Shown here in pieces: positions 172-15,540 of a stretch of DNA of 64,000 nt. This stretch comes from Candidatus Methanovirga australis. GTDB lineage: Archaea; Methanobacteriota; Methanobacteria; Methanobacteriales; Methanobacteriaceae. The DNA is taken from NCBI GenBank assembly GCA_031272765.1, contig JAISTD010000123.1:323-64322 (forward strand), read 5' to 3'. The notes beneath the pieces are model-generated. The model saw nothing but the letters and a program-made list of their open reading frames with translations. It was not told where the DNA came from and ran no database searches. Both the position numbers and the translations under genes were made by a program. The first letter of the stretch is position 1. Every line of letters begins with the position of its first letter.

Positions 172-980
172 TTAATAAAGAATTCTTATTTTCACAATTA
201 TTATTATGTGCAATACCATTAATATATTCTCTTTTAGAATGATTAGCCCACTCATGACAATTTTATGAGTAAATAGACCTTTACACATCGTATAATCATT
301 TGAAAAAACTTGTATTGGTTCATTACAGTACTTTGAAATTAATTCTCCAATTAATTTCTTTGAAAGATTAGGAACTACTTTAAAAATTACTTTTCCAGTA
401 GATTTCGAAACCATTGAGATAATCGGTGACTTATTTTTTCATAAGCTCCTCTACCTCTTAGTTTCAATCATTTTTTTTCGTGGAGGATCTTCTACTGGAT
501 ATTTTTTAGCTCCTTTACTTCCAGTGGAAATGTACTTCATCAAATCAATATCTCCAGTTAATCTGGAGGTTCATAGTTATTTTCAAGATTAACTCTCATT
601 AAATTAGCAATGCGAGCGATTGTCTTACATAAATAGGGTAATTCTTTAGATATAATGTTCACTCTTTTGAATGGTAAATTGAAGAAATATAGAATACTAC
701 ATTCATAGAAACTTTAGTTTTATGGAAAATCGTTCCAGTAAAATCACTGAAGTTCAAGTCATTCTTTACAAGAGTAATATCTGGTTTTAAATGGTGATCC
801 ACAATTACAGATATTATAGCTCTTACATTTTGGATAATGAATTCTTTCAGACCATCTTATTTGGAACATATTCATACAATTTCTCAAAAGGCAACATATA
901 TAATGATTTAAAGTTTTTGGTGACATATAATAAAATATTTTGATTATAGTATATACATTTGCAATGATACATATATACAT
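172..980 (-). pseudogene. IS1595-family (ISXO2-like) DDE transposase, broken by frameshifts and stops
   Basis: ORF 759-980 has a Zn-ribbon-like N-terminus (CKSYNICNCGSPFKTRYYSCKE). ORF 172-414 resembles the IS1595 C-terminal region (VVPNLSKKLIGELISKYCNEPIQVFSNDYTMCKGL then H-K-I-V...). The 415-758 stretch between them has no continuous frame. Confidence 0.5.
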
Positions 981-5588: not shown

Positions 5589-7202
5589 TTAAACAATTTC
5601 ATTTATATATGATTTTAGAATTGAATCTTTATTAACAATTGTAGGTAATTTTGTTGAAGTTATTGATTTACCTGGACTAACTACTTTAACAAATAAACTA
5701 TCACGATAACCTGATTTCATAATATATAACCTATTTAATTCTAATTTTAAATCGTTTTTTAAATTCTTAATTAAGTTTTCTCTAAATTCTAATTTGTTGA
5801 AATCAGCACCACTATGTTCAATAATATAAGAAACACTTTTTTTATCATCTGAAGGAATTACTTGGAAAAAACTAATAAATTCATTAGAATCTTTTTCAGT
5901 TTTTTTTATTACATGATCAAACTGATTAGCAAAAAAAGTGACATTGTTACAAACAGTGTTTTCACTTGCTTTACATTCAAATTCAATATTTGGTGTTTTA
6001 AAAGTTTCACCTTTAAACGAAACAATATCATGAAGATTATAACGATACAATCCAGAATAAGTACTTATTACTATTTCATATAATTTACTCATATCTACTT
6101 CTTCTAAGGTTACTATCTCTCCACCATCAATTGGTAAAAATTCAAAAAATGCTGAAAAAGGAGCTATTGGTCCTGCAGAAATATTTGCTTCAAAAGGCAC
6201 ATTAAATTTTCCTTCACTTGCACCATAACCCCATTCTAAAAAATTCACATCCTCACTTAAATTTCTTTTAATGTCTATTGCACATCTGCCTACACTTGAG
6301 GAAAGCCAACACCCAACAGTTTTAAAATTAGGCCAAATATCTTCAACTTTAAGCTCCCCTTTATCTAAATAAATTTCTCTAAGTTCTCTAACTCTTTCTT
6401 TAGTATCTGGAAGTTTAGATATTAATATTTCTTTTAAAGAGGAGTCAATATCTAAAGAAATAGTATGATCATCTAAATCATCAATCATTTTAGAAGTATT
6501 ATTTCTAATTTTTTTAAGTAAAAAATTAAAATGGGCTAAATTATTGCATATAACTGCAGTAAGATTTTTTGAAGCTAAAGCAAATAAAGCCATTAAATAA
6601 TCTTTATCTTCATTATAAATATCTTTTGCTTGAATTAATTCTTTAGGTAAAATGATTTTAATATTAGAATCCTCATATGTGCTAAGTCCCTGACCAGATG
6701 CTGCCATAATAGGAATTCCTCCTTCAGTAAACCCATAGTCTGAAGAATTTGTAATTCCTAAAACAGGAGGATTATTTAATAAACTTGGGCAAATCTTAGT
6801 TAATTGTATTGATCTAAGTTTCATTACAAGATTTTTAGTTAAAATTCCTCTTTCACTATCAGGGAAATATTTCATATGTCCTGTGGTTCCTGAAGAAACT
6901 ACAAAAGAATGAGTTGAACCATTGAAGAGAATATCACTTTTTCCTTTTTTCATTTTTTCAATATCATCCAAATAATCAGAATAATTGGAAATTGAAACAT
7001 TTTTTTGAAACTCTTCAATTGATTTAATTTCATCAAAAGAATGTTTAATCCCAAATTCAGAGGATTTTCCATATTTTAAAATATCAAACAAAATTTCCTT
7101 TTGAACTTTATAAGGATCTTTTAAAAATTCTTGGAATTTCCCATATAATTTTAATTCATCTAATTCATTTAATGATTCTGGAATACTTCTATTAAAACCC
7201 AT
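5589..7202 (-). CDS. GH3-family adenylate-forming acyl acid-amido synthetase homologue
   Basis: GH3 motifs are present: SSGTTGHMKYFP, GYGASEG and YRYNLHDIV. Length is 537 aa. Confidence 0.85.
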   Translation of the reverse strand: MGFNRSIPESLNELDELKLYGKFQEFLKDPYKVQKEILFDILKYGKSSEFGIKHSFDEIKSIEEFQKNVSISNYSDYLDDIEKMKKGKSDILFNGSTHSFVVSSGTTGHMKYFPDSERGILTKNLVMKLRSIQLTKICPSLLNNPPVLGITNSSDYGFTEGGIPIMAASGQGLSTYEDSNIKIILPKELIQAKDIYNEDKDYLMALFALASKNLTAVICNNLAHFNFLLKKIRNNTSKMIDDLDDHTISLDIDSSLKEILISKLPDTKERVRELREIYLDKGELKVEDIWPNFKTVGCWLSSSVGRCAIDIKRNLSEDVNFLEWGYGASEGKFNVPFEANISAGPIAPFSAFFEFLPIDGGEIVTLEEVDMSKLYEIVISTYSGLYRYNLHDIVSFKGETFKTPNIEFECKASENTVCNNVTFFANQFDHVIKKTEKDSNEFISFFQVIPSDDKKSVSYIIEHSGADFNKLEFRENLIKNLKNDLKLELNRLYIMKSGYRDSLFVKVVSPGKSITSTKLPTIVNKDSILKSYINEIV

Positions 7203-7362
7203 TTAAAAACCCCTTATCTAATGAGAATTTCTATAAACCTCTTAATCTTTATAAATAAACTGATATGAAACACTCTCTTATTTTTAATATTTATTAACAC
7301 CATTATCAATTAATAAAATATAATATAAATACATCAATGGGTTTAATAATAAAATTAAATTT

Positions 7363-9066
7363 CTACTCTTCAATTAATGCAAAGAAAAATCTTCTTTGAG
7401 CTTCATTTACAATTACTCTTGGAGGTTTCAATTGATTTGAAGACACACCTTTAGTTATCATTAAATCCCTATATAATAAATAAGTTTCTTTTTGTAAAAG
7501 ATGTACTTGTGTTTTACCAAGAATATTCTTTTTAATTTTATCACCATAGGATAAATTAAGTTTAGATAATTTTTCCTCTATTGAATCACGAATATCTTCT
7601 TTAGATACTTTATCTGGATTTTCATTAATTTCTAAAAAGAAAACATAAGATGCAGGTGATGAATCATGATCAGGATACATCGAAAATTCCATTAAATCTA
7701 TATTAAATTCTTTCATAGTTCTTTGAACAGCTTCCCTTAAAGCAACTTCAGTAGTTTTCTCACCAGCCAAACTAACATTTTGACTGACCCTATATAAGAA
7801 TTGAACTAATGGCATGTCATTATAACGACCAGTTACACGAATAGCATCACCCATTTTATACCTATAAAATCCTGAAAGATTAGTGATTATTATTTCATAA
7901 ATTTCCCCATCTTCTATTTGATCAATTGTCAAATACTCTTCACCATTAATAGGTCTAAATTCAAAAAAACAAGAATCAGGTACCAACGCCGAATCGGGCG
8001 AATTAATATCAATAGGTGATGAAAAAACGCCTTCTGAAGAAGCAATTCCGTATAAAACTAAATTTAAATCTTCACCAGCATATTTTTCTTTAATTTTGTT
8101 GGTATAATTATCAAATCCTCCCGTACCAATTCCAACGAGTGCTTTCATTTTAGGCCATAATTTTGGGATAATTGGTTCACTAAAACCTTCATTAAATATT
8201 TTTGTCAATTCTTCAGCTCTCTGAGGCATTGCTTGAATTCTTGTCGATAAACTTTCCCTAACCGTACTAGACATGTTAATTTCATCATTAATTGTTCCAT
8301 TATTTATATCATCTACAAGCAATTTCCAATTTTCTTCAATATACACCAATAACTCAACAAAAGCACTGTAAAATGGTGACAAAGTATAGCTAATATCTCT
8401 ATCCATTAAAGCAAATCTTGCAATTATATATCTAACATCAGTATCTGGTTCTGGAAAAAAGGCTTCTGGTGGAGAAGTATATAATAACTGAAGTATTTTT
8501 TCATATCCCCCCAATTCTTCTCCAAGTGTTAATAATGCCTTTGTAGATATTGCTCCATAAGTTATTTTAGGTTTTATTTCTTTTAAGGAAAAATCAGCAA
8601 TATTTAATACCCTCCCATTAATCCAATCTAAACCTAATTTATCCCCCATTAAAGCCATTATATTATCTGCTCCATGTTTAAGAAATACTTCTTGACCTGG
8701 AATAGAGCAAGGTATCTTTTTAGGGTTACCTAATGTTCCAGAAGATTTAGAATAATGATCTACTTTATTAACAGTGATTAGACCATCCATATCATCGATT
8801 ATCATAGATAATATATATTCAATATAGTCATCATATTCTGTTAACGGGACCTTGGATTGATATTCTTCAATAGATTTAATATGACTAAAATCGTACTTTT
8901 GTCCATACTCAGTATTTTTATTCTCATCTAATATTTTAAATAATAATTCTTCATTATATTTAATTGGATCTTCTGTCATTTTTAAAAGATTTTCACGAAC
9001 TTCTTTACCATCCTTATATTTTTGCATGAAGACTTTTCCAGCAACGGACAAATCATTGATGTTCAT
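7363..9066 (-). CDS. GH3-family adenylate-forming acyl acid-amido synthetase homologue (divergent paralogue)
   Basis: Motifs SSGTLGNPKKIP, YGIASSEG and YRYKMGDAIRV. Length is 567 aa. An SD GGTGA precedes the ATG. Confidence 0.85.
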   Translation of the reverse strand: MNINDLSVAGKVFMQKYKDGKEVRENLLKMTEDPIKYNEELLFKILDENKNTEYGQKYDFSHIKSIEEYQSKVPLTEYDDYIEYILSMIIDDMDGLITVNKVDHYSKSSGTLGNPKKIPCSIPGQEVFLKHGADNIMALMGDKLGLDWINGRVLNIADFSLKEIKPKITYGAISTKALLTLGEELGGYEKILQLLYTSPPEAFFPEPDTDVRYIIARFALMDRDISYTLSPFYSAFVELLVYIEENWKLLVDDINNGTINDEINMSSTVRESLSTRIQAMPQRAEELTKIFNEGFSEPIIPKLWPKMKALVGIGTGGFDNYTNKIKEKYAGEDLNLVLYGIASSEGVFSSPIDINSPDSALVPDSCFFEFRPINGEEYLTIDQIEDGEIYEIIITNLSGFYRYKMGDAIRVTGRYNDMPLVQFLYRVSQNVSLAGEKTTEVALREAVQRTMKEFNIDLMEFSMYPDHDSSPASYVFFLEINENPDKVSKEDIRDSIEEKLSKLNLSYGDKIKKNILGKTQVHLLQKETYLLYRDLMITKGVSSNQLKPPRVIVNEAQRRFFFALIEE

Positions 9067-9154
9067 AGTATCACCACTAATACAATATTAAATTAAATTT
9101 ACACAGATAAAGTTAGTAGTTAATATGTTGATAAATATTAACTAAGTACAAAAT

Positions 9155-9451
9155 TTATTCTATAGTTAAAATGTCTGTAAATCCAGTAGCATCAAAAACC
9201 TCCATGATAAATTCATTAACATTTTTAATTACCATGGTTCCTTGTTTATTCATCAATTTTTGTGTGGAAAGAATAATTCTAAGTCCTGAACTGGAGATAT
9301 AATTTAATCCTTCAAAATCAAATATTAACTCACTTACATTTGGAAGATCATTTTTTAATGCATCATTTAACTCTGGAGAAGATTTAGTATCTAATCTACC
9401 AGAAACTTTAACCACTATCTTTTTACCTTCAACATTTTTTTCAATATCCAT
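9155..9451 (-). CDS. STAS-domain protein (SpoIIAA/RsbV-type anti-anti-sigma antagonist)
   Basis: A 98-aa single domain with GRLD and a conserved phospho-serine context, NYISSSGLRIIL. An SD AGGTG lies upstream. Confidence 0.85.
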   Translation of the reverse strand: MDIEKNVEGKKIVVKVSGRLDTKSSPELNDALKNDLPNVSELIFDFEGLNYISSSGLRIILSTQKLMNKQGTMVIKNVNEFIMEVFDATGFTDILTIE

Positions 9452-9898
9452 TAATAAACACCTACTATCAAATTATAGTCTTAGAAAAATTTTTTATAAT
9501 TTATGAGTTAATCTAAAATGTCTTATTTTATATAATTATCATTATACTCACTTAATTTTTAAAAATATATTTAAAATATTTTTATTTTTAAGAATTATTA
9601 ATTGTAATAGTTTTATTAATTAAATAAGTTATAATAACATTTCAGAAATTATTGTCACTTACAAACTTTAGTTCCAAGCCTATAAGAAAATTTTGATACA
9701 TATAATAACTATTTTATATTTCAACATTTATATATTAATGTTTTAAATAAGATATTAAAATAGTATTCAATACAATCCATGAATGATTTTATGAATTAAA
9801 GAGGAAGTGTAATACATAATTTTAATTCATTGAATAAGTATTACAAAACAGTTGACCTGATAGTAATAGAGAGAATTACAAAAATAGCTTTGTAAAGC

Positions 9899-11833
9899 TT
9901 AATTTTTCTTTCTATATTCCAAAATTAACATGGTCTCATCATCAAATTGTTCAACACCTTTAGTAAAACTATGCAGTACCTTGCTTACTTTAGGAATCAA
10001 ATCTTCAATTTTTAAGGCATGATTTTCATTTAAAACATTGGCCAATCTTTTTATTTGAAATTCTTCTTCATTTTGATTAATAGACTCTGTGATTCCATCA
10101 GTAAATAAGTATAATCTATCACCTGCATTTATTGTTATTTTAAATGATTTATACTTCATATTTTCCATTCCTCCAAGAACAAAGTCAGGTTTAGATTCTA
10201 AAATATTATATTGGTTTCTAGATTTGTTAAATAAAAATGGTTTGGGGTGACCCGCATTCACATAAGTCATTTCTCCAGAATTAATATTCAATAATCCTAA
10301 CCATACTGTAACAAACATTCCTTCATTATTGTTCTCATTAAGCTCATTATTAATCTTAATGAAAACTTCTGATGGTTTTAACCCTAATTTTAATTGATCT
10401 TTAATCAATGTTTTAACCATCATCATAAATAATGCTGCTGGAACTCCTTTACCACTCACATCACCAATAACGATAACTAAATGATTATCATCTATTAAAA
10501 AATAATCATAAAAATCTCCTCCAACATTTTTAGCAGGGATATAACTTGCAAAAATATCAAAATCATTTAACCTATTAGGAAATGGAGGAAATTCATTTGG
10601 GATTGTATCCATTTGAATTTTAGAAGCAACATTCAATTCAGCATCAATTTTTTCTTCTTTAGCTGTAATTTTCTTTAAATCAACAATATACTTCTCAATA
10701 GTTATAATCATGTTCTTAATAGATACAGATAAAAACTTTGTTTCATATTTATTAGTTGATAAATAATCTAATCTATTTAATATAGATTCAATATTATTTG
10801 GATTATTGTGTTCCTTTTGACTAAATCTATTTGTTATATATTCTATAGCAAGAGTACTAACAGATTGCAATGGTTTAGAAAAATTTTTTTCAATATAATA
10901 TAATAATAATGAGGAGAAAATTAACATTAATACCCAATTTATTACATCATACACACCAAAATAAAGCTCTATGAAGTCATGTAAGTCAAAAGTTTCTCCA
11001 AATAATATCCAATCAAACACATACCAAAAATAAGGGGTAATATTGTAAAATATAGATATTAGCAAAACAAAACATATTATAACCTCACTAAATGAAGTAT
11101 TATATTTTACCTGTTCATGGTTACCATTTGGCTTAAGAATAACAAGGAAAATTATTATAATCATGTTAAAAAGAATATATTCACAATTAATAACATATAA
11201 TTTTCCAATTAAATAATTATATAATAATTGGATTATTAGTGTTATTGAAAATAGTATGATAGCATGCCTAATTTTTTTATTATGCTTTAAAAAACTTGAT
11301 TTTTCTATTTTGTATACTTTAATATTGGTTAAATTAACTATTAAAACAAATAAGGTATTAAAAATAAAAGTCAAATTTAAAATTAGAAAATAATCTGTTA
11401 GAAAATTATTTAAATTATCAGAATTAAATATCACTTCAGGATCAAATAAATAATAACTACAAATATATAAGTATAGAAAAAAAGCATTACCTATTATATT
11501 TACTAAAATAAATTTAATCAAATTACTCGTGTCATTCAAATGTAATGTTGGAACTTTATTATCAAAATTAAAAGCATAAAATAATTTAAAAACAAAATAA
11601 CTTAGACTAACTATAACTAAACTATTGAATAAATAGAAAAAACTTAATTGTGATAAATTATTAGAGTAATTCAATATAAAATGAACTACCATATATCCAG
11701 ATCCTAATCCTAAACACCCCCATTTTCCATATAATAACGGAAATATAGATATTAAAATCACAGCAGGATTAATATGAACTTCAAAATATGAAAATTGATT
11801 AAAAAATGCATAAACTATTGAATAAATTATCAA
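9899..11833 (-). CDS. polytopic membrane protein with a C-terminal PP2C/SpoIIE-type serine phosphatase domain
   Basis: About 330 aa of hydrophobic N-terminal segments precede the PP2C motifs GGDFYDYF, GDVSGKGVPAALFM, TDGITE and DDETMLILE. The first in-frame start is TTG, so the N-terminus is uncertain. Confidence 0.85.
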   Translation of the reverse strand: MIIYSIVYAFFNQFSYFEVHINPAVILISIFPLLYGKWGCLGLGSGYMVVHFILNYSNNLSQLSFFYLFNSLVIVSLSYFVFKLFYAFNFDNKVPTLHLNDTSNLIKFILVNIIGNAFFLYLYICSYYLFDPEVIFNSDNLNNFLTDYFLILNLTFIFNTLFVLIVNLTNIKVYKIEKSSFLKHNKKIRHAIILFSITLIIQLLYNYLIGKLYVINCEYILFNMIIIIFLVILKPNGNHEQVKYNTSFSEVIICFVLLISIFYNITPYFWYVFDWILFGETFDLHDFIELYFGVYDVINWVLMLIFSSLLLYYIEKNFSKPLQSVSTLAIEYITNRFSQKEHNNPNNIESILNRLDYLSTNKYETKFLSVSIKNMIITIEKYIVDLKKITAKEEKIDAELNVASKIQMDTIPNEFPPFPNRLNDFDIFASYIPAKNVGGDFYDYFLIDDNHLVIVIGDVSGKGVPAALFMMMVKTLIKDQLKLGLKPSEVFIKINNELNENNNEGMFVTVWLGLLNINSGEMTYVNAGHPKPFLFNKSRNQYNILESKPDFVLGGMENMKYKSFKITINAGDRLYLFTDGITESINQNEEEFQIKRLANVLNENHALKIEDLIPKVSKVLHSFTKGVEQFDDETMLILEYRKKN

Positions 11834-11945
11834 ACTGATTAAAAAATTTTTTAATCCCTGTTTAACTTCCCCGTTTATTTAAATTCCCCCTTCATTTACT
11901 ATCCAATAACACGGTTTCAATATTTTAAAAGACTATGCTAATGAC

Positions 11946-12083
11946 CAATGTCATCAACTTAACGATTTTTACTTAAATTGGGTTTTATATTTTTCATGGT
12001 TTTAAATAAATTGCAAATTTTTTTATATAAATTTGTCTATTTCACGAAAATATTTAACCAGATCTCTTAAGTTGATGACATTG
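11946..12083. mobile_element. MITE family C (138 bp) with a perfect 17-bp TIR and a 10-bp TSD
   Basis: CAATGTCATCAACTTAA (11946-11962) is the exact reverse complement of TTAAGTTGATGACATTG (12067-12083). It is flanked by the direct repeat TGCTAATGAC at 11936-11945 and 12084-12093. Confidence 0.75.
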
Positions 12084-12222
12084 TGCTAATGACTGTTTTC
12101 ACATTATACTAATTATTTAATAATTATGAATTATTTCATATCAACAAATCATTTTTAAATTTAATTTAAAAAATATTATCAACTCTCATAAGTCTATAAA
12201 TTAACAAAATTTACCAACAGGA

Positions 12223-12639
12223 CTAAAAATCCAATATTTTCTCAATAGTTAAAATATTTTGATTATCCTTAAATTCATAATCAATATTATTAATATTTTT
12301 CTTAACAAGAAAAATTCCTAATCCACCAATATCTCTATCATTAGCATTTAAAGTTGTGTCAGGATCCTTATGTTTTAATGGATTAAATTGAGTTCCTTTA
12401 TCGATGATTTTAATAACAATTCTTGAAGGATTATCTTTAAAATTATATATTATTTCTATTTTATTATCATCACTTCCTATTTCATAGGAATAATTAATAA
12501 TATTTGTAAAAATCTCTTCTAAAGCTATTTCAAGCCCTAACTTAAATTTTTCAGACACAGATTTAGAATCTAAATAATCTCTAATAATTTCTAAAACATT
12601 ATCTAACTCGTTTATATCTGCCTTTACAGTAACATTCAT
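12223..12639 (-). CDS. RsbW/SpoIIAB-type serine kinase (anti-sigma-factor-like GHKL ATPase)
   Basis: 138 aa with an N-box LEEIFTNIINYSY, a G1 box IDKGTQFNP and a G2 box GGLGIFLVKK. An SD GGTG sits 7 nt upstream of the ATG. Confidence 0.85.
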   Translation of the reverse strand: MNVTVKADINELDNVLEIIRDYLDSKSVSEKFKLGLEIALEEIFTNIINYSYEIGSDDNKIEIIYNFKDNPSRIVIKIIDKGTQFNPLKHKDPDTTLNANDRDIGGLGIFLVKKNINNIDYEFKDNQNILTIEKILDF

Positions 12640-12650
12640 TTAAACACCTA

Positions 12651-12664
12651 TCATATAACTATTG
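12651..12664. promoter_or_regulatory. perfect 14-bp palindrome ATTGTCATGACAAT just upstream of the kinase start (candidate operator)
   Basis: Read directly from the sequence. It is self-complementary and lies 12-25 nt upstream of the ATG at 12639, immediately 5' of the SD. Confidence 0.3.
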
Positions 12665-13133
12665 TCATGACAATTTGATTCTTTCTATTTTAGTATTGAT
12701 TTTATTATTGATAATTTTTCATTAGAATAGTATTAAATGAAATTTCAACGGAGGATAATCCTTTGATTTCCTGAAAACTCATTTTTAAAATTTTACTAAA
12801 TTATTTTGTCTTGACACTATTTTATTCATGTAATATAGTACTTGACATGATTTTTTAAGTAATGGACTTTTTAAATAGATATAATATTATTTTATTTTAA
12901 GTTTTATTTATTGAATAGTATATTTTTTGATATAATTATTTTGAATTATTTATAATGAAATAATCTATGTTTAAATGATATTTTCAAACAGAGAATAAAT
13001 TCTTCTAAGTTAAAAATAAATTTTTAACAATAGAAAACTCATTAATTAAATTATTAATATCAAGGACTATAATTATCAAAAATTATTGTATTGCAACAAC
13101 CTCATGGAACTACAATTTTTTCCACCATTTTTT

Positions 13134-14834
13134 TTACAATACTATTGTTAAATTATTTAATCCAATTGTGTTTCTATAATCTATGTCTTTAGCTATTTTT
13201 CGAATTATAGAAATCCCAAGTTTATTTTTTGAAGGGCTGTTTTCATTACCATATTCTATTGGGTTAAATGGTTTACCATCATCCCGAATTCTGAAAATAA
13301 CCCCATTTTTAGTTAAAAGAATCCTAATATCTATGTAGTGCTGTTTAGATGATAGGAAACCATGTTCTACAATATTTCCTGCCATTTCTTCTACACATAA
13401 TGCGATTTTTTTAAGTTTGTCTTCACAATGAGGATACTTATCAATGAATGAATAAATCTTATTAGACAGTTCCATAACTTGCTCCATATCATTTTCTATC
13501 GAAATTTCAAAACTATCTTTAATATTTTCCTCAAAACTATCCTCCAACATTAGAAAATCATTAACTTTTCTAGGCCATATTCCAGTTTTAATTCTTATTA
13601 AAATAATAAGACCAACCAAAGTAAAAGTTTCCCCTAAAAAGAAACAAATCCAAAGCCCGTCAGATCCCATTATTGGTGTTAAAACAGTGGCAAATAAAGA
13701 TATTAATAAAAAACTATGTGCAAAACCTATATAATTCGCCATATAAGTATTATTTATAGAACTATAAAAATTTAAGAATATAACTCCAATTAATGAAGGA
13801 GGTAATGATAATGCAAATAATTGAAGGGAAAATGTTGCCGTGGGAAGAACCTCAGGGTTTTTACCAAAAAGACCAACTAAAAATGAGGAAAATATTATGA
13901 CAAGTAATGAAAGAGGAACTATAATATACAAACCCCATTTAATTGATATTTTCAAAAGATCAGATAGTGAACGTCTATCTTCTTCACCATAAAAAATCCC
14001 ACCAAGTAACATTGTTGTCATTCCAACCCCCATAGCTACTGCACTTAATAATTGATTTATATTTGATTGAATAGTCAAAGCACCCATCACTATTACTCCA
14101 CCAACCCATAATGCAATATGATTAGTAACAATTGTTCTTGCCATTGTGAAAATTCTATTTAATGCTGTTGGCAGTCCTATTCTAATAATTTCAATAGCTT
14201 CTCTGAAATTATGTATTTTAGATAAATGTAATGTATTTTTTTTAGTAAAAAAATGAGAACATAACACTAACACACCCAAAGTATAACTAATTGATGTTGC
14301 AATACCAATACCAAACATTCCTAAGTGGAATACAGTGACAAATAGAATATCTAAAGTTATATTAAAAATAGTTGAAATTGTGATTGAAAGCAATCCTAAG
14401 TTAGGATTATTATCTAATCTAGTATATGAAAATAATACTTGAGATAAAATTAAAGAAGATGTTCCTAATATCAATCCAAACATAAAATCAGAAGCCAATG
14501 GTGTTAAAGCCCCAGTAGCACCTAAAAGAACAGATAGATAATCTACATAAAAAGGAGAAAATGCAGTTATTATTATTGAAGTTATAAGCCCAATTAAACA
14601 AGTCATAGTAAAACTATCATTAACTTTTCCTCTTTCTTCTCGCCCAATATAATTAGAAGATAATATTGTACCTCCATTTCCAAAAACTGTTGCAAAAGCC
14701 ATTATCAAAATAAAAATAGGAGAAACTATACCATAAGCAACCATGCCTTCATTTCCCATGAAATTGCCGACAATCAAACCGTCAATCACCATTCCTAAAG
14801 TAGCATTAATTAGTCCTATTATTGAAACAAACAA
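13134..14834 (-). CDS. MATE-family efflux transporter fused to a C-terminal RsbW-type GHKL kinase domain
   Basis: About 420 aa of MATE-like 12-TM region precede a roughly 130-aa domain with an N-box CVEEMAGNIVEHGF, a G1 box RDDGKPFNP and a G2-like KLGISIIRKIA. There is no canonical start at the expected N-terminus; TTG at 14834 is the first candidate. Confidence 0.85.
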   Translation of the reverse strand: MFVSIIGLINATLGMVIDGLIVGNFMGNEGMVAYGIVSPIFILIMAFATVFGNGGTILSSNYIGREERGKVNDSFTMTCLIGLITSIIITAFSPFYVDYLSVLLGATGALTPLASDFMFGLILGTSSLILSQVLFSYTRLDNNPNLGLLSITISTIFNITLDILFVTVFHLGMFGIGIATSISYTLGVLVLCSHFFTKKNTLHLSKIHNFREAIEIIRIGLPTALNRIFTMARTIVTNHIALWVGGVIVMGALTIQSNINQLLSAVAMGVGMTTMLLGGIFYGEEDRRSLSDLLKISIKWGLYIIVPLSLLVIIFSSFLVGLFGKNPEVLPTATFSLQLFALSLPPSLIGVIFLNFYSSINNTYMANYIGFAHSFLLISLFATVLTPIMGSDGLWICFFLGETFTLVGLIILIRIKTGIWPRKVNDFLMLEDSFEENIKDSFEISIENDMEQVMELSNKIYSFIDKYPHCEDKLKKIALCVEEMAGNIVEHGFLSSKQHYIDIRILLTKNGVIFRIRDDGKPFNPIEYGNENSPSKNKLGISIIRKIAKDIDYRNTIGLNNLTIVL

Positions 14835-15540
14835 GTATGATTTAAAAGATTTTAAAATTAAATAATTATTCGTTAGTGTATTCTTAATTATAACACATCC
14901 TATTTAAATAATAAAGTTATCATTGCAAACTCAATAGTATTGCATTGACACTTATTTAAATTAAAATATTGAACAATTTAATTACATATGGATATAATTA
15001 TATTAAAATTATTACAAAAACATCACATAATAGCTAACAAATTTATACATCCCCCAAGTATGTGAACATGATTTTATTTGTATTCTTAATTAAATATATG
15101 TTTTGTGATTTAACCAATGCTGTTAACTTAATGTTTATATAGTAAATTGTTCATATCTATTATTAGTATTATGTTTTATTTAGACAAATATGTGTAGTTG
15201 CATTATCATTAATTGTAATAAGATCTTAAAAGAGTTTTTTGAGTTAATAACTTCGGATGAATTTCTAAAAATGAGCAAAATAAATTTTGAATCATTTATA
15301 CACAATATATTTAAAAACCTAAAGTTTGATAACAATTTAAATTATAATGACTTTTTATAAAGTCTTATTTTTTTAATTTATTTTGAAGTTTAACTCTTTT
15401 TTTAGAATAATTTTAATTCTGCACTTAAACAAACTTGTTCTAATAGAACTTCCTCTTTTCCTTCTTTTAAGAATTTTATAATCCAGTTTAATTCCGTTGA
15501 CTTTTTTAAACTGATTTAATTCCTTAATTTTATTTTAATT

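What the first reader, a model, noticed from the sequence alone, without database searches (positions are those of the whole stretch)
5589..14834. Partner-switching module (STAS / RsbW-type kinase / membrane PP2C) in a sigma-factor-less archaeon, clustered with two GH3 ligases and a MATE exporter
Six co-directional minus-strand genes form the cluster. They are a MATE::GHKL-kinase fusion (13134-14834), a stand-alone RsbW/SpoIIAB-type kinase (12223-12639; N-box EEIFTNIINY, G1 DKGTQFNP, G2 GGLGIF), and a polytopic-membrane PP2C/SpoIIE phosphatase (9899-11833; GGDFYD, GDVSGKG, TDGITE). A single-domain STAS protein with the phosphorylatable serine context ISSSGLR (9155-9451) and two GH3 adenylate-forming ligases (5589-9066) complete the set.

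In bacteria this triad controls an anti-sigma/sigma pair. Archaeal transcription uses TBP/TFB and has no sigma factors, so the output here must be something else. The only locally encoded candidate output is the exporter, which carries its own anti-sigma-type kinase domain.

Working hypothesis: a signal-gated conjugate-and-export system. GH3 enzymes would ligate an amino acid to a carboxylic acid, the MATE pump would export the product or substrate, and STAS phosphorylation state (kinase versus membrane PP2C) would gate the pump. I am not aware of an experimentally characterised system of this kind in archaea.
Basis: partly seen in the sequence, partly recalled or inferred. Interest (0 to 1): 0.85.

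Follow-up and report, generated by a model that had tools for sequence, protein, structure and literature searches.

The report
Phospho-switch cassette coupling ligases to exporter
A termite-gut methanogen carries a six-gene cassette, shared with many gut bacteria and probably acquired from them, in which anti-sigma-type signalling proteins (STAS, kinase, membrane phosphatase) seem wired directly to amide-forming GH3 enzymes and a MATE export pump rather than to a sigma factor.

Summary
All six minus-strand genes and every quoted motif are real, and the Pfam domain calls are strong (E 1e-14 to 1e-64). The window is 99% identical to Candidatus Methanovirga procula, a Methanobrevibacter-family archaeon.

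The juxtaposition is not chance. At least 80 genome contigs encode a full-length MATE::HATPase_c_2 fusion (363 matches in all). STAS and GH3 genes are far denser within 3 kb of it than beyond 5 kb. A compact operon, GH3–STAS–MATE::kinase–[membrane sensor]-PP2C::kinase, recurs in Lachnospiraceae, Collinsella, Eggerthellaceae, Methanomassiliicoccales, Methanospirillum and Methanobrevibacter. Relatives include GH3::kinase, STAS::GH3 and PP2C::kinase fusions, and NRPS can replace GH3. No sigma factor recurs nearby, even in the bacteria.

The free kinase keeps all ATP-binding boxes. The pump-fused domain has a shortened ATP lid and a degenerate G2 box.

Best reading: a bacterial-origin, sigma-independent partner switch acting post-translationally on a small biosynthesis-and-export cassette. 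The product and the gating step are inferred, not shown. A similar cluster around an NRPS was noted in the 2010 M. ruminantium genome paper. This is a new variant of a known kind, of moderately high interest.

The parts
13134..14834 (-). MATE::K* fusion. A 12-TM MATE exporter (about aa 1-425, nt 13560-14834) with a C-terminal RsbW-like HATPase_c_2 domain (about aa 440-566, nt 13134-13517). The coding region probably extends upstream to about 14900.
   Evidence: Pfam MatE 1e-30 and HATPase_c_2 2.4e-14. TIGR00797 matches profile positions 3-396. The AF2 model has pLDDT 85.6 and pTM 0.84, and its best PDB matches are PfMATE/DinF-type exporters. K* keeps the N-box and G1 box but has a short ATP lid and a single-Gly G2 box. 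The upstream 22 codons are conserved with M. cuticularis.
12223..12639 (-). Stand-alone RsbW-type serine kinase (138 aa) with complete N, G1 and G2 boxes. It is the presumed STAS kinase.
   Evidence: HATPase_c_2 5.5e-19. It makes weak RsbW equivalog hits well under cutoff. The motif class 'free', EEiF.N / D.G.PF(D/N)P / IGGLGI, is conserved in 16 homologues. In other lineages the homologue is fused to PP2C or to GH3.
9899..11833 (-). Membrane sensor PP2C phosphatase. A polytopic N-terminal domain (aa 1 to about 395, nt 10649-11833, about 8 TM, no Pfam family) precedes a SpoIIE/PP2C catalytic domain (nt 9899-10648). The ancestral ATG is mutated to ATA at 11876-11878.
   Evidence: SpoIIE 3.5e-47. 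TM scan. The motifs GGDFYD, DVSGKG, TDGxTE and DDxT are conserved in 34 homologues. There is no Pfam hit for the N-terminal domain and it is not related to the 5TMR-LYT type by hhalign. Start-codon change.
9155..9451 (-). Single-domain STAS protein (98 aa) with the predicted phospho-acceptor Ser54 in YISSSGLR.
   Evidence: STAS 7.9e-15. TIGR00377 scores above cutoff. It aligns to RsbV (6M36_B) and SpoIIAA (1TH8_B) with Ser54 on the phospho-Ser. Ser54 is invariant in 44/44.
7363..9066 (-). GH3b, the cassette-universal GH3 acyl-acid amido synthetase (567 aa) with all three nucleotide-binding motifs.
   Evidence: GH3, GH3_M and GH3_C domains. It aligns full-length to JAR1 (4EPL), E 2.9e-45, with SSGT..G.PK, YG.SSEG and YRY.MGD aligned. 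It is the 'b-like' orthologue in every GH3-bearing locus. It is not OlsH: 74.8 bits against a cutoff of 620.
5589..7202 (-). GH3a, a divergent GH3 paralogue (537 aa, 28% identical to GH3b) found only in the termite-gut Methanobrevibacter/Methanovirga clade.
   Evidence: GH3 N-terminal domain 1.3e-48 plus GH3_M, with no GH3_C hit. Pairwise comparison with GH3b. Clade-restricted distribution. dN/dS 0.24 against M. curvatus.

Best explanation
The six genes are one functional cassette of bacterial origin: a sigma-independent partner-switching module that acts post-translationally on a small biosynthesis-and-export unit.

**Proposed working (steps 1-4 are inferred by homology and gene context, not shown)**
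1. GH3b, with its clade-specific paralogue GH3a, uses ATP to ligate an amino acid to a carboxylic acid.
2. The MATE protein exports that product, or its precursor.
3. The polytopic membrane domain of the PP2C senses an envelope or extracellular cue and controls dephosphorylation of STAS-Ser54-P. The free, fully equipped RsbW-type kinase re-phosphorylates STAS.
4. Unphosphorylated STAS docks on an RsbW-like domain. Here that is the degenerate kinase-like domain (K*) on the cytoplasmic C-terminus of the MATE pump. In other lineages it is a kinase domain fused to GH3 or to the PP2C. Docking switches export and/or synthesis on or off.

The cassette reached methanogens from gut Firmicutes-type bacteria at least twice.

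**Shown here:** gene and domain identities, motif integrity, cross-domain synteny, the domain fusions, absence of a recurrent sigma factor, and purifying selection on the transporter and GH3a.
For: - **Domains and motifs:**
- **Conserved cassette.** The genome scan gave 363 matches, and the best 80 all span both domains of the fusion.
  - The compact operon GH3-STAS-MATE::K*-sensor-PP2C::kinase, with 1-7 nt gaps or overlaps, occurs in Methanomassiliicoccales, Methanospirillum, Eggerthellaceae and other bins.
  - Proximal versus distal enrichment is about 10-fold for STAS, and 6.2 versus 0 per 100 kb for GH3.
- **Domain fusions linking switch domains to effectors.**
  - MATE::K*.
  - PP2C::kinase.
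  - GH3::kinase in 15 of the top 120 GH3b homologues, including Methanobrevibacter MAGs with MatE(K*)-STAS-GH3::kinase next to two PP2C genes.
  - STAS::GH3 next to a free kinase, ABC exporters and an ATP-grasp ligase.
  - STAS::kinase and kinase::STAS in the same STAS subfamily.
- **Interchangeable enzyme.** NRPS replaces GH3 in L029, L056, L057, L071 and L031 and in M. ruminantium (PMC2812497). A condensation-like HxxxDG protein accompanies GH3 in four loci.
- **Transporter clade tracks enzyme type**.
- **Division of labour.** Free, PP2C-fused and GH3-fused kinases keep IGG[LF]GI. The 82 MATE-fused domains have a lid about 7 aa shorter and a single-Gly G2 box. One lineage also lost the N-box Asn.
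- **No recurrent sigma factor** among 129 neighbouring ORFs, and none in the window.
- **Selection.** dN/dS is 0.16-0.29 for MATE::K* and 0.24 for GH3a, against 0.23 for alaS.
- **Experimental precedent** for a partner switch acting directly on a biosynthetic enzyme: Anabaena All4160/HenR/Alr3423 (PMC13555669).
Against: - No binding, phosphotransfer, transport or product data exist for any member.
- The mirror-tree test gave no STAS/K* co-evolution signal beyond shared phylogeny: partial r = -0.02, p = 0.56. It has low power but is not supportive.
- 30 of the 80 loci, for example the Selenomonadaceae, have no switch gene within 6 kb of the fusion. That is 14 of the 44 loci with at least 4 kb of flank on both sides.
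- In this window the genes are separated by 389-494 nt gaps. The PP2C has lost its ATG, and the fusion has no canonical start for its conserved N-terminus. PP2C dN/dS against a close strain is 0.82. The regulatory arm may therefore be relaxing in this lineage.
- K* keeps the invariant N-box Glu/Asn and G1 Asp in the 20-sequence alignment A1 and highly conserved N- and G1-box consensus across the 82 MATE-fused domains, so it may still be an active kinase.
- The substrate is unknown. Methanogens are not known to make GH3-type conjugates.
Confidence: 0.55

Rival explanations
1. Modify-and-expel detoxification. The GH3 enzymes conjugate an incoming toxic carboxylic acid (for example a plant- or lignin-derived aromatic acid, a bile-type acid or an antibiotic). 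The MATE pump expels it, and the membrane PP2C senses the toxicant or membrane damage. The cassette would be a resistance device rather than a biosynthetic one.
For: MATE proteins are classically drug and toxin extruders. The NCBIfam best hits are MepA/FepA-type multidrug pumps, all below cutoff, and the closest structures are multidrug MATEs. All hosts are gut, rumen or digester anaerobes exposed to such acids. APH-family phosphotransferases, typical antibiotic-modifying enzymes, sit directly upstream of the fusion in 17 loci.
Against: NRPS, a condensation-like protein, an ATP-grasp ligase and a GT2::GH3 fusion are alternative or additional partners. These point to making a compound rather than disarming one. 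ClbM-type MATEs export biosynthetic products. The role of APH is ambiguous, since it could be a protein-kinase-like regulator fused to its STAS substrate.
Confidence: 0.2
2. Kinase-dimer scaffold. RsbW and SpoIIAB work as homodimers. K* on the pump may be the dimerisation partner of the free (or GH3- or PP2C-fused) kinase rather than a STAS receptor. The pump would recruit the active kinase, or the kinase-tagged enzyme, and STAS would compete with or be phosphorylated by this heterodimer.
For: Every full cassette has two RsbW-like domains, one complete and one degenerate. The complete one is found fused to GH3 or PP2C, which would bring those proteins to the pump. There is no STAS/K* co-evolution signal.
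Against: STAS is the gene most often and most tightly coupled to the fusion gene: 23 direct adjacencies, and 11 loci with STAS as the only switch gene nearby. No data bear on heterodimerisation.
Confidence: 0.15
3. Hidden transcriptional or other trans output. The free kinase, or K*, sequesters an unidentified regulator encoded elsewhere (in archaea a TFB/TBP-associated factor or a transcription regulator). GH3 and MATE would be co-regulated cargo rather than direct targets.
For: Canonical RsbW and SpoIIAB bind transcription factors (established knowledge). The M. ruminantium authors proposed regulation of NRPS expression (PMC2812497). The long intergenic gaps in the window would allow separate promoters.
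Against: No regulator or sigma gene recurs near the cassette in either domain of life. Direct fusion of switch domains to GH3, MATE and PP2C argues for protein-level targets.
Confidence: 0.07
4. Decaying horizontally acquired relic. The cluster is real by descent but no longer functions as a regulated unit in this Methanovirga lineage.
For: The PP2C start codon is mutated (ATG to ATA), and the fusion lacks a canonical start for its conserved N-terminus. The gaps are unusually long compared with 38-90 nt in M. curvatus. PP2C dN/dS is 0.82. The fusion is split into two ORFs in the Ca. M. meridionalis MAG.
Against: All six ORFs are intact. MATE::K* and GH3a have dN/dS of 0.16-0.29, like alaS. STAS is identical between strains. 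All six differences in the upstream 22 codons are synonymous. PP2C substitutions cluster in the sensor domain, 46 of 56, while the catalytic motifs are intact.
Confidence: 0.03

Closest known systems
Bacillus RsbU/RsbV/RsbW and SpoIIE/SpoIIAA/SpoIIAB partner-switching modules
   Same: The same three domain families are present (PP2C/SpoIIE, single-domain STAS, HATPase_c_2 Ser kinase). STAS Ser54 aligns with the phospho-Ser of RsbV and SpoIIAA. Like SpoIIE, the PP2C sits behind a polytopic membrane domain.
   Different: There is no sigma factor target, and the host is archaeal. The proteins score far below the RsbW, SpoIIAB and SpoIIE equivalog cutoffs. A second, degenerate kinase-like domain is fused to a transporter. 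The genes are linked to biosynthetic enzymes.
Sigma-independent partner switches acting on enzymes: Anabaena HenR / All4160 (STAS::glycosyltransferase) / Alr3423 (PMC13555669). From the literature also P. aeruginosa SiaABCD and V. fischeri SypE/SypA.
   Same: A PP2C and an RsbW-type kinase set the phosphorylation state of a STAS domain that directly controls a biosynthetic enzyme rather than transcription. STAS::GH3 (P0160) has the same architecture logic as STAS::glycosyltransferase.
   Different: Here the effector set includes a transporter carrying the kinase-like domain. The enzymes are GH3 or NRPS. The cassette crosses the bacteria/archaea boundary. None of it has been tested.
M. ruminantium M1 NRPS cluster mru0066-mru0071 (PMC2812497)
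   Same: A Methanobrevibacter cluster of two serine phosphatases, an anti-sigma antagonist, a MatE protein and an amide-forming enzyme. It was proposed to sense, regulate and export, and flagged as bacterial in origin.
   Different: The enzyme is an NRPS rather than GH3. The paper does not report a kinase domain on the MatE protein, and I could not fetch that sequence to check. It offers annotation-level speculation only.
SLC26/SulP transporters with a C-terminal STAS domain
   Same: A secondary transporter carries a cytoplasmic C-terminal domain taken from the anti-sigma partner-switch toolkit.
   Different: The arrangement is reciprocal. Here the transporter carries the STAS-binding (kinase-like) partner and STAS is a separate phosphorylatable protein. 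The transporter family is also different (MATE/MOP).
GH3 + MATE pairing in plant salicylate synthesis (PBS3/GH3.12 with the MATE exporter EDS5), and MATE exporters inside biosynthetic clusters (ClbM of the colibactin island)
   Same: A GH3 amido synthetase and a MATE transporter handle the same small-molecule pathway. GH3b aligns full-length with GH3.12 and JAR1, and ClbM is among the structural matches.
   Different: The plant pair is not physically or genetically linked and has no partner-switch control. This comparison rests on my background knowledge, not on a test made here.
OlsH (planctomycete GH3-like N-acyl-ornithine synthetase, PMC12493201)
   Same: It is the only characterised prokaryotic GH3-like enzyme I found, and it uses the same ATP-dependent amide-forming chemistry.
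   Different: GH3a and GH3b score 53 and 75 bits against an equivalog cutoff of 620. The gene context is different, with no OlsI or OlsG.

Membership tests
Partner-switching system (RsbV/RsbW/RsbU type) | Single-domain STAS protein with a conserved phosphorylatable Ser/Thr in the DS[ST]GL-type loop | tested here: met
   Pfam STAS 7.9e-15 and TIGR00377 above cutoff. Ser54 aligns to the phospho-Ser of RsbV and SpoIIAA and is invariant in 44/44.
Partner-switching system (RsbV/RsbW/RsbU type) | HATPase_c_2 serine kinase with intact N, G1 and G2 boxes | tested here: met
   The free kinase at 12223-12639 scores HATPase_c_2 5.5e-19. EEIFTN, DKGTQFNP and GGLG match the conserved 'free' class.
Partner-switching system (RsbV/RsbW/RsbU type) | PP2C (SpoIIE-family) phosphatase with metal-binding Asp motifs | tested here: met
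   SpoIIE 3.5e-47. GGDFYD, DVSGKG, TDGITE and DDET are conserved across 34 homologues.
Partner-switching system (RsbV/RsbW/RsbU type) | A sigma factor (canonical target) sequestered by the kinase | tested here: not met
   No sigma-like gene was seen among the window ORFs examined; the HMM scan used only the six cassette profiles and found no extra switch genes. None recurs among the 129 ORFs flanking related cassettes. Archaea lack sigma factors (established knowledge). The target must be something else.
Partner-switching system (RsbV/RsbW/RsbU type) | Phosphorylation-dependent, mutually exclusive binding of the kinase to STAS or to its target | not testable with these tools
   This needs binding and phosphotransfer assays or multimer modelling. 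The mirror-tree proxy was uninformative.
RsbW / SpoIIAB / SpoIIE / SpoIIAA equivalogs (orthologues of the Bacillus proteins) | Score above the NCBIfam equivalog cutoff | tested here: not met
   RsbW 32 against 145, SpoIIAB 20 against 135, SpoIIE 36.8 against 490.8, SpoIIAA 53.5 against 114.75. The proteins belong to the same superfamilies but are not orthologues.
MATE (MOP superfamily) transporter | 12 TM helices in two MatE repeats with a MATE fold | tested here: met
   Pfam MatE in two stretches. 12 hydrophobic helices. The AF2 model has pLDDT 85.6. The best Foldseek match (PfMATE 6HFB) has E 9e-15 and TM-score 0.84; other top hits such as DinF-BH and Aq_128 have similar TM-scores (0.8-0.84) at E 1e-11 to 1e-12.
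MATE (MOP superfamily) transporter | TIGR00797 matE subfamily cutoff | tested here: not met
   128.8 bits against a cutoff of 147.4. The alignment is full-length (profile 3-396), but this is a divergent member.
GH3 acyl-acid amido synthetase | GH3 N, M and C domains and the three nucleotide-binding motifs (SSGT..G.PK, YG.SE, YR.GD) | tested here: met
   GH3b has all three domains, and its motifs align with JAR1. GH3a has the N and M domains, SSGTTGHMK and YGASEG, but YRYNLHD in place of YR.GD and no GH3_C hit, so it meets the test only partly.
GH3 acyl-acid amido synthetase | Demonstrated acyl and amino-acid substrates | not testable with these tools
These are not OlsH equivalogs.
Anti-phage defence systems (PADLOC) | Match to any defence-system protein model | tested here: not met
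   No hits for any of the six proteins.

The most novel reading that the evidence does not exclude
STAS and RsbW-like domains form a portable, phosphorylation-gated docking pair. It physically couples a biosynthetic enzyme (GH3, NRPS) to its dedicated exporter, or uncouples them, in response to a membrane sensor phosphatase. If so, this would be the first partner switch whose direct output is a transporter, and the first shown to operate in archaea. The pump-borne K* domain would be a pseudokinase-like receptor for unphosphorylated STAS. The secreted GH3 product would be a previously unknown class of gut-microbial acyl-amino-acid metabolite shared by methanogens, Lachnospiraceae and Coriobacteriia.
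Probability: 0.3. Interest if true: 0.8.

Novelty: new variant of a known kind. Interest (0 to 1): 0.62.

Why it matters
**Signalling.** Partner switching is a textbook way of controlling sigma factors. A version whose receiver domains are fused to an exporter and to amide-forming enzymes would extend the principle to direct post-translational control of metabolite synthesis and secretion. Its conservation in methanogens as well as Firmicutes and Actinobacteria would show that the mechanism works without any bacterial transcription machinery.

**Enzymology.** Nearly all prokaryotic GH3 enzymes are uncharacterised, so the cassette also flags a possible family of secreted acyl-amino-acid or peptide-like metabolites made by abundant gut and rumen microbes, including Methanobrevibacter.

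**Testability.** Several cultured carriers exist: Collinsella aerofaciens ATCC 25986, Butyrivibrio sp. LC3010, Methanobrevibacter sp. DSM 116169, M. cuticularis and M. curvatus.

Tried and rejected
1. **Whole-family genome scan.** The 20-sequence fusion alignment had no stretch conserved enough to search with. A 10-sequence alignment worked.
2. **Iterated HMMs.** These did not recover more STAS, PP2C or GH3 neighbours than single-sequence phmmer, so loci lacking them really do lack them nearby.
3. **Origin of the PP2C membrane domain.** It has no Pfam hit even at E = 1. hhalign against the 5TMR-LYT-type sensors aligned only the linker and PP2C start. It remains unassigned.
4. **Mirror-tree co-evolution of STAS with K* versus the MATE domain.** Partial r was -0.02, which is not supportive.
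5. **Gene remnants in the long intergenic gaps.** tblastn with all ORFs of related loci found none inside the cluster. The kinase–PP2C gap has no plasmid match.
6. **RNA genes.** Rfam and tRNA scans of the window found nothing.
7. **Defence-system reading.** There are no PADLOC hits.
8. **OlsH (ornithine-lipid) reading of the GH3s.** Rejected, because the scores are far below cutoff.
9. **Chance juxtaposition.** Rejected.
10. **Literature.** Searches for a prior description of MatE+HATPase_c_2 fusions or of a GH3/STAS/MATE cassette found none apart from the M. ruminantium annotation.
11. **Not done.**
    - I could not fetch mru0069 to check whether it carries K*.
    - No multimer modelling was available.
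    - PDB entry 9QIH 'SenB', the best solved relative of the free kinase, could not be traced in the literature.

Full report
**1. What is in the window**

ORF listing confirms six co-directional minus-strand genes at the stated coordinates.

Pfam assigns the following:

| Gene | Coordinates | Pfam result |
|---|---|---|
| GH3a | 5589-7202 | GH3 N-terminal domain plus GH3_M |
| GH3b | 7363-9066 | GH3 N-terminal, GH3_M and GH3_C |
| STAS | 9155-9451 | STAS |
| PP2C | 9899-11833 | SpoIIE/PP2C at residues 448-640 of a 644-aa protein |
| Free kinase | 12223-12639 | HATPase_c_2 |
| Fusion | 13134-14834 | MatE plus a C-terminal HATPase_c_2 |

- E-values range from 1e-14 to 1e-64.
- NCBIfam places the STAS protein above the 'anti-sigma factor antagonist' superfamily cutoff. 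All Bacillus equivalogs (RsbW, SpoIIAB, SpoIIE, SpoIIAA) score far below cutoff.
- A hydropathy scan gives 12 helices for the MATE part and about 8 for the PP2C N-terminus.
- The window contains no other STAS, kinase, PP2C, GH3 or MATE gene, and no Rfam or tRNA feature.
- The flanks are alaS and archaeal ribosomal protein genes.
- The fusion gene is 99% identical to a Candidatus Methanovirga procula MAG and 86% identical to M. cuticularis and M. curvatus. The host is a termite-gut member of the Methanobrevibacter family.

**2. The neighbourhood is conserved across two domains of life**

A genome-collection scan with an alignment of fusion proteins found 363 matching stretches. The best 80 all span both the MATE and the kinase-like parts. 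I searched the ORFs of these loci with the window's proteins and with iterated profiles.

- *Counts within 6 kb of the fusion:* 39 loci have STAS, 25 have GH3 and 28 have PP2C, almost always on the same strand.
- *Density within 3 kb versus beyond 5 kb, per 100 kb:* STAS 8.1 vs 0.8, GH3 6.2 vs 0.0, PP2C 4.5 vs 1.9.
- *Adjacency:* 23 of 43 STAS genes abut the fusion gene, with gaps of -4 to 94 nt.
- *Compact operon:* GH3-STAS-MATE::kinase-PP2C, with overlapping or nearly touching genes, recurs in Methanomassiliicoccales/Methanomethylophilaceae, Methanospirillum, Eggerthellaceae and other bins.
- *Variants:* these occur in Eubacteriales, Lachnospiraceae, Syntrophomonadaceae, Collinsella aerofaciens and Methanobrevibacter.
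- *Gene order:* M. curvatus has STAS-GH3b-GH3a-MATE::kinase-kinase-PP2C. The window has the circular permutation MATE::kinase-kinase-PP2C-STAS-GH3b-GH3a. The order changed but the linkage was kept.

The 'chance juxtaposition' refutation criterion therefore fails.

**3. Architecture of the cassette**

In the compact operons the fourth gene is a membrane sensor (often 5TMR-LYT, sometimes with HAMP), followed by PP2C and then a C-terminal HATPase_c_2. A full cassette therefore always has two RsbW-like domains: one on the pump and one that is free (as here) or fused to the PP2C.

Homologues of GH3b add further fusions.
- 15 of the top 120 are GH3::HATPase_c_2 proteins of about 711 aa, and one is STAS::GH3.
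- Rumen and gut Methanobrevibacter MAGs carry MatE(582 aa)-STAS-GH3::kinase next to two PP2C genes. That MatE still ends in a kinase-like domain.
- The STAS::GH3 gene sits with a free kinase, two ABC exporters and an ATP-grasp ligase.
- Within the same STAS subfamily (1,797 cluster representatives at E ≤ 1e-10) there are STAS::kinase, kinase::STAS, dCache-HAMP-PP2C::STAS and STAS::APH proteins.

The enzyme slot is interchangeable.
- NRPS genes adjoin STAS and the fusion in L029, L056, L057, L071 and L031.
- A protein of about 425 aa with an HxxxDG condensation-type motif accompanies GH3 in four loci.
- One locus has GT2::GH3.
- An APH-family phosphotransferase sits directly upstream of the fusion in 17 loci, and is fused to STAS in two more. 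APH could be a small-molecule enzyme or a protein-kinase-like regulator, so I do not lean on it.

No sigma-factor family appears among the 25 recurrent families reported for 129 otherwise unclassified neighbouring ORFs.

**4. State of the catalytic sites**

- *STAS:* Ser54 aligns with the phospho-serine of RsbV (6M36) and SpoIIAA (1TH8) and is invariant in 44/44 cassette STAS proteins, within YISS[AS]GLR.
- *PP2C:* the motifs GGDFYD, DVSGKG, TDGxTE and DDxT are conserved.
- *Kinase domains* fall into two classes.
  - Free (n=16) and PP2C-fused (n=14) domains keep the N-box, the G1 box and an almost invariant IGG[LF]GI G2 box. The single GH3-fused kinase examined (L085) also has the full motif set.
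  - The 82 MATE-fused domains keep EEMAGN and DDGxPF[DN]P. Their ATP lid is about 7 residues shorter and only one G2 glycine survives.
  - In the rumen Methanobrevibacter lineage the N-box Asn is also replaced (EEMGTT).
  - I therefore call the pump-borne domain K*. It is probably a weak or non-catalytic receiver, while the free kinase is the likely writer. This is an inference from motifs, not a measurement.
- *GH3b* aligns end to end with JAR1 and GH3.12, with all three nucleotide motifs.
- *GH3a* is a 28%-identical paralogue restricted to the termite-gut clade.
- Neither GH3 is an OlsH equivalog. OlsH is the only characterised prokaryotic GH3-like enzyme I could find (PMC12493201).
- *MATE:* the AF2 model is confident (pLDDT 85.6, pTM 0.84). 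Its best structural matches are PfMATE/DinF/NorM-type exporters, and the biosynthetic-cluster exporter ClbM also appears.

**5. Origin**

An NJ tree of 80 fusion proteins (no support values) places the archaeal copies in two separate clades.
- Methanobrevibacter/Methanovirga is sister to a GH3-linked Eubacteriales/Lachnospiraceae group.
- Methanomassiliicoccales plus Methanospirillum are intermixed with Eggerthellaceae and other bins.
- APH-linked pumps form their own Lachnospiraceae clade, so the pump co-diversifies with its partner.

Since most carriers are bacterial, at least two bacteria-to-archaea transfers are the simplest reading. Some bins labelled Faecalibacterium, Acutalibacteraceae or Anaerovoracaceae carry cassettes nearly identical to Methanomethylophilaceae ones and may be mis-binned.

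**6. Is it alive in this genome?**

- dN/dS is 0.16-0.29 for MATE::K* and 0.24 for GH3a, compared with 0.23 for alaS. STAS is identical between strains.
- The PP2C shows dN/dS of 0.82 against a close strain. 46 of its 56 replacements lie in the membrane sensor domain. That indicates either relaxed constraint or diversifying selection on the sensor.
- The PP2C's ancestral ATG is ATA here.
- The fusion gene's conserved 22 N-terminal codons differ from M. cuticularis only at synonymous sites, yet they lack a canonical start codon.
- The intergenic gaps are much longer than in M. curvatus, and they contain no gene remnants.
- Divergence from M. curvatus is uneven: pump 86%, GH3a 83%, STAS 63%, GH3b 53%, kinase 43%, PP2C 36%.

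**7. Mechanism**

The best-supported model has four steps.
1. The membrane PP2C and the free kinase set the phosphorylation state of STAS Ser54.
2. Unphosphorylated STAS docks on RsbW-like domains that are attached to the effectors: K* on the pump here, and kinase domains on GH3 or PP2C elsewhere.
3. This docking controls export and/or synthesis of the GH3 product.
4. Control is at the protein level.

What is shown is the parts list, motif integrity, synteny, fusions and the lack of a sigma factor. Every interaction and the chemistry are inferred. A mirror-tree test found no STAS/K* co-evolution beyond shared phylogeny, so the specific STAS-K* contact is not independently supported. An alternative is that K* heterodimerises with the full kinase. 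Detoxification, a hidden transcriptional target and a decaying relic are the other rivals.

**8. Relation to what is known**

- Sigma-independent partner switches are established in bacteria. One acting directly on a STAS-fused glycosyltransferase was shown in Anabaena in 2026 (PMC13555669).
- A review of STAS-only proteins that I searched does not mention archaea (PMC8256260).
- The 2010 M. ruminantium genome paper already listed an NRPS flanked by two serine phosphatases, an anti-sigma antagonist and a MatE protein. It proposed sensing, regulation and export, and a bacterial origin (PMC2812497).
- I found no paper describing a MatE/HATPase_c_2 fusion or a GH3/STAS/MATE cassette.

The finding is therefore a new variant of a known kind. 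The switch is familiar. What is new is the transporter-borne receiver domain, the GH3 (or NRPS) coupling and the cross-domain distribution. It is not a uniquely archaeal invention.

**9. Verdict**

It is right about the module and its likely conjugate-and-export logic. It is untested on gating, and it overstates the archaeal angle.
- Interest is 0.62.

Noticed in passing
window 14835-14903 (-): The 22 codons upstream of the called TTG start of the MATE fusion encode IGCVIIKNTLTNNYLILKSFKSYLF. This is the N-terminus of the M. cuticularis protein, and all six nucleotide differences are synonymous. No ATG, GTG or TTG is present here or in two other Methanovirga MAGs (GTG has become GGA or GGT). 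The start may be non-canonical (ATA at about 14900), or the N-terminus was lost only recently.
   Followed up: partly
window 11834-11878 (-): The PP2C gene's ancestral start ATG (present in the related contig L002) is ATA in this window. The next canonical start is the TTG at 11833, 15 codons downstream.
   Followed up: partly
window 9899-11833 vs L002: Between close strains the PP2C has dN/dS of about 0.8. 46 of its 56 amino-acid changes lie in the membrane sensor domain (aa 1-395), while STAS is identical. The sensor is either fast-evolving or relaxed.
   Followed up: partly
window 5589-14834 vs L008 (M. curvatus): The gene order is a circular permutation of the M. curvatus cassette, and divergence is mosaic: pump 86%, GH3a 83%, STAS 63%, GH3b 53%, kinase 43%, PP2C 36%. 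This suggests recombination with a paralogous cassette or very unequal rates.
   Followed up: partly
window 175-438 and 1280-1567: An IS1595-type DDE transposase fragment (88% identical to a 98-aa ORF of L002) and a small HTH_45-like ORF lie downstream of alaS.
   Followed up: no
L011:11691-12992, L013:2246-3520, L015:8674-9939, L055:11731-13011: A soluble protein of about 425 aa with no Pfam family and an FHGL(S/A)DG (HxxxDG, condensation/acyltransferase-like) motif sits between or next to GH3 and the fusion gene in four bacterial loci. It may be a second amide- or ester-forming enzyme of the pathway.
   Followed up: partly
L055:6394-9018: A glycosyltransferase-family-2::GH3 fusion (874 aa) lies upstream of the MATE::K* gene in a rumen Eubacterium MAG.
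   Followed up: no
L010:12131-19917: Methanobrevibacter sp. DSM 116169 has four tandem paralogues of the membrane PP2C downstream of GH3-STAS-MATE::K*-kinase. This looks like an expansion of the sensor arm.
   Followed up: no
L035, L041, L042 vs L032, L033, L040, L043: Contigs binned as Acutalibacteraceae, Faecalibacterium and Anaerovoracaceae carry cassettes almost identical in gene lengths, and adjacent in the tree, to Methanomethylophilaceae ones. This indicates either mis-binning or very recent inter-domain transfer.
   Followed up: no
L018:575-2360: In the Ca. Methanovirga meridionalis MAG the fusion gene is split into two ORFs (267 + 333 aa), through either a frameshift or an assembly error.
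   Followed up: no
L066-L080 (Selenomonadaceae): Fusion genes here have no switch genes nearby. They are flanked by an NlpC/P60-SH3 peptidase and by proB/proA-like amino-acid kinase and aldehyde dehydrogenase genes. Free kinases of the same subfamily occur elsewhere in Selenomonadaceae genomes.
   Followed up: partly
PDB 9QIH chain A ('SenB'): This is the best solved-structure sequence match of the free kinase (E 1.9e-4), better than SpoIIAB or RsbW. I could not find what SenB is in the searchable literature.
   Followed up: partly
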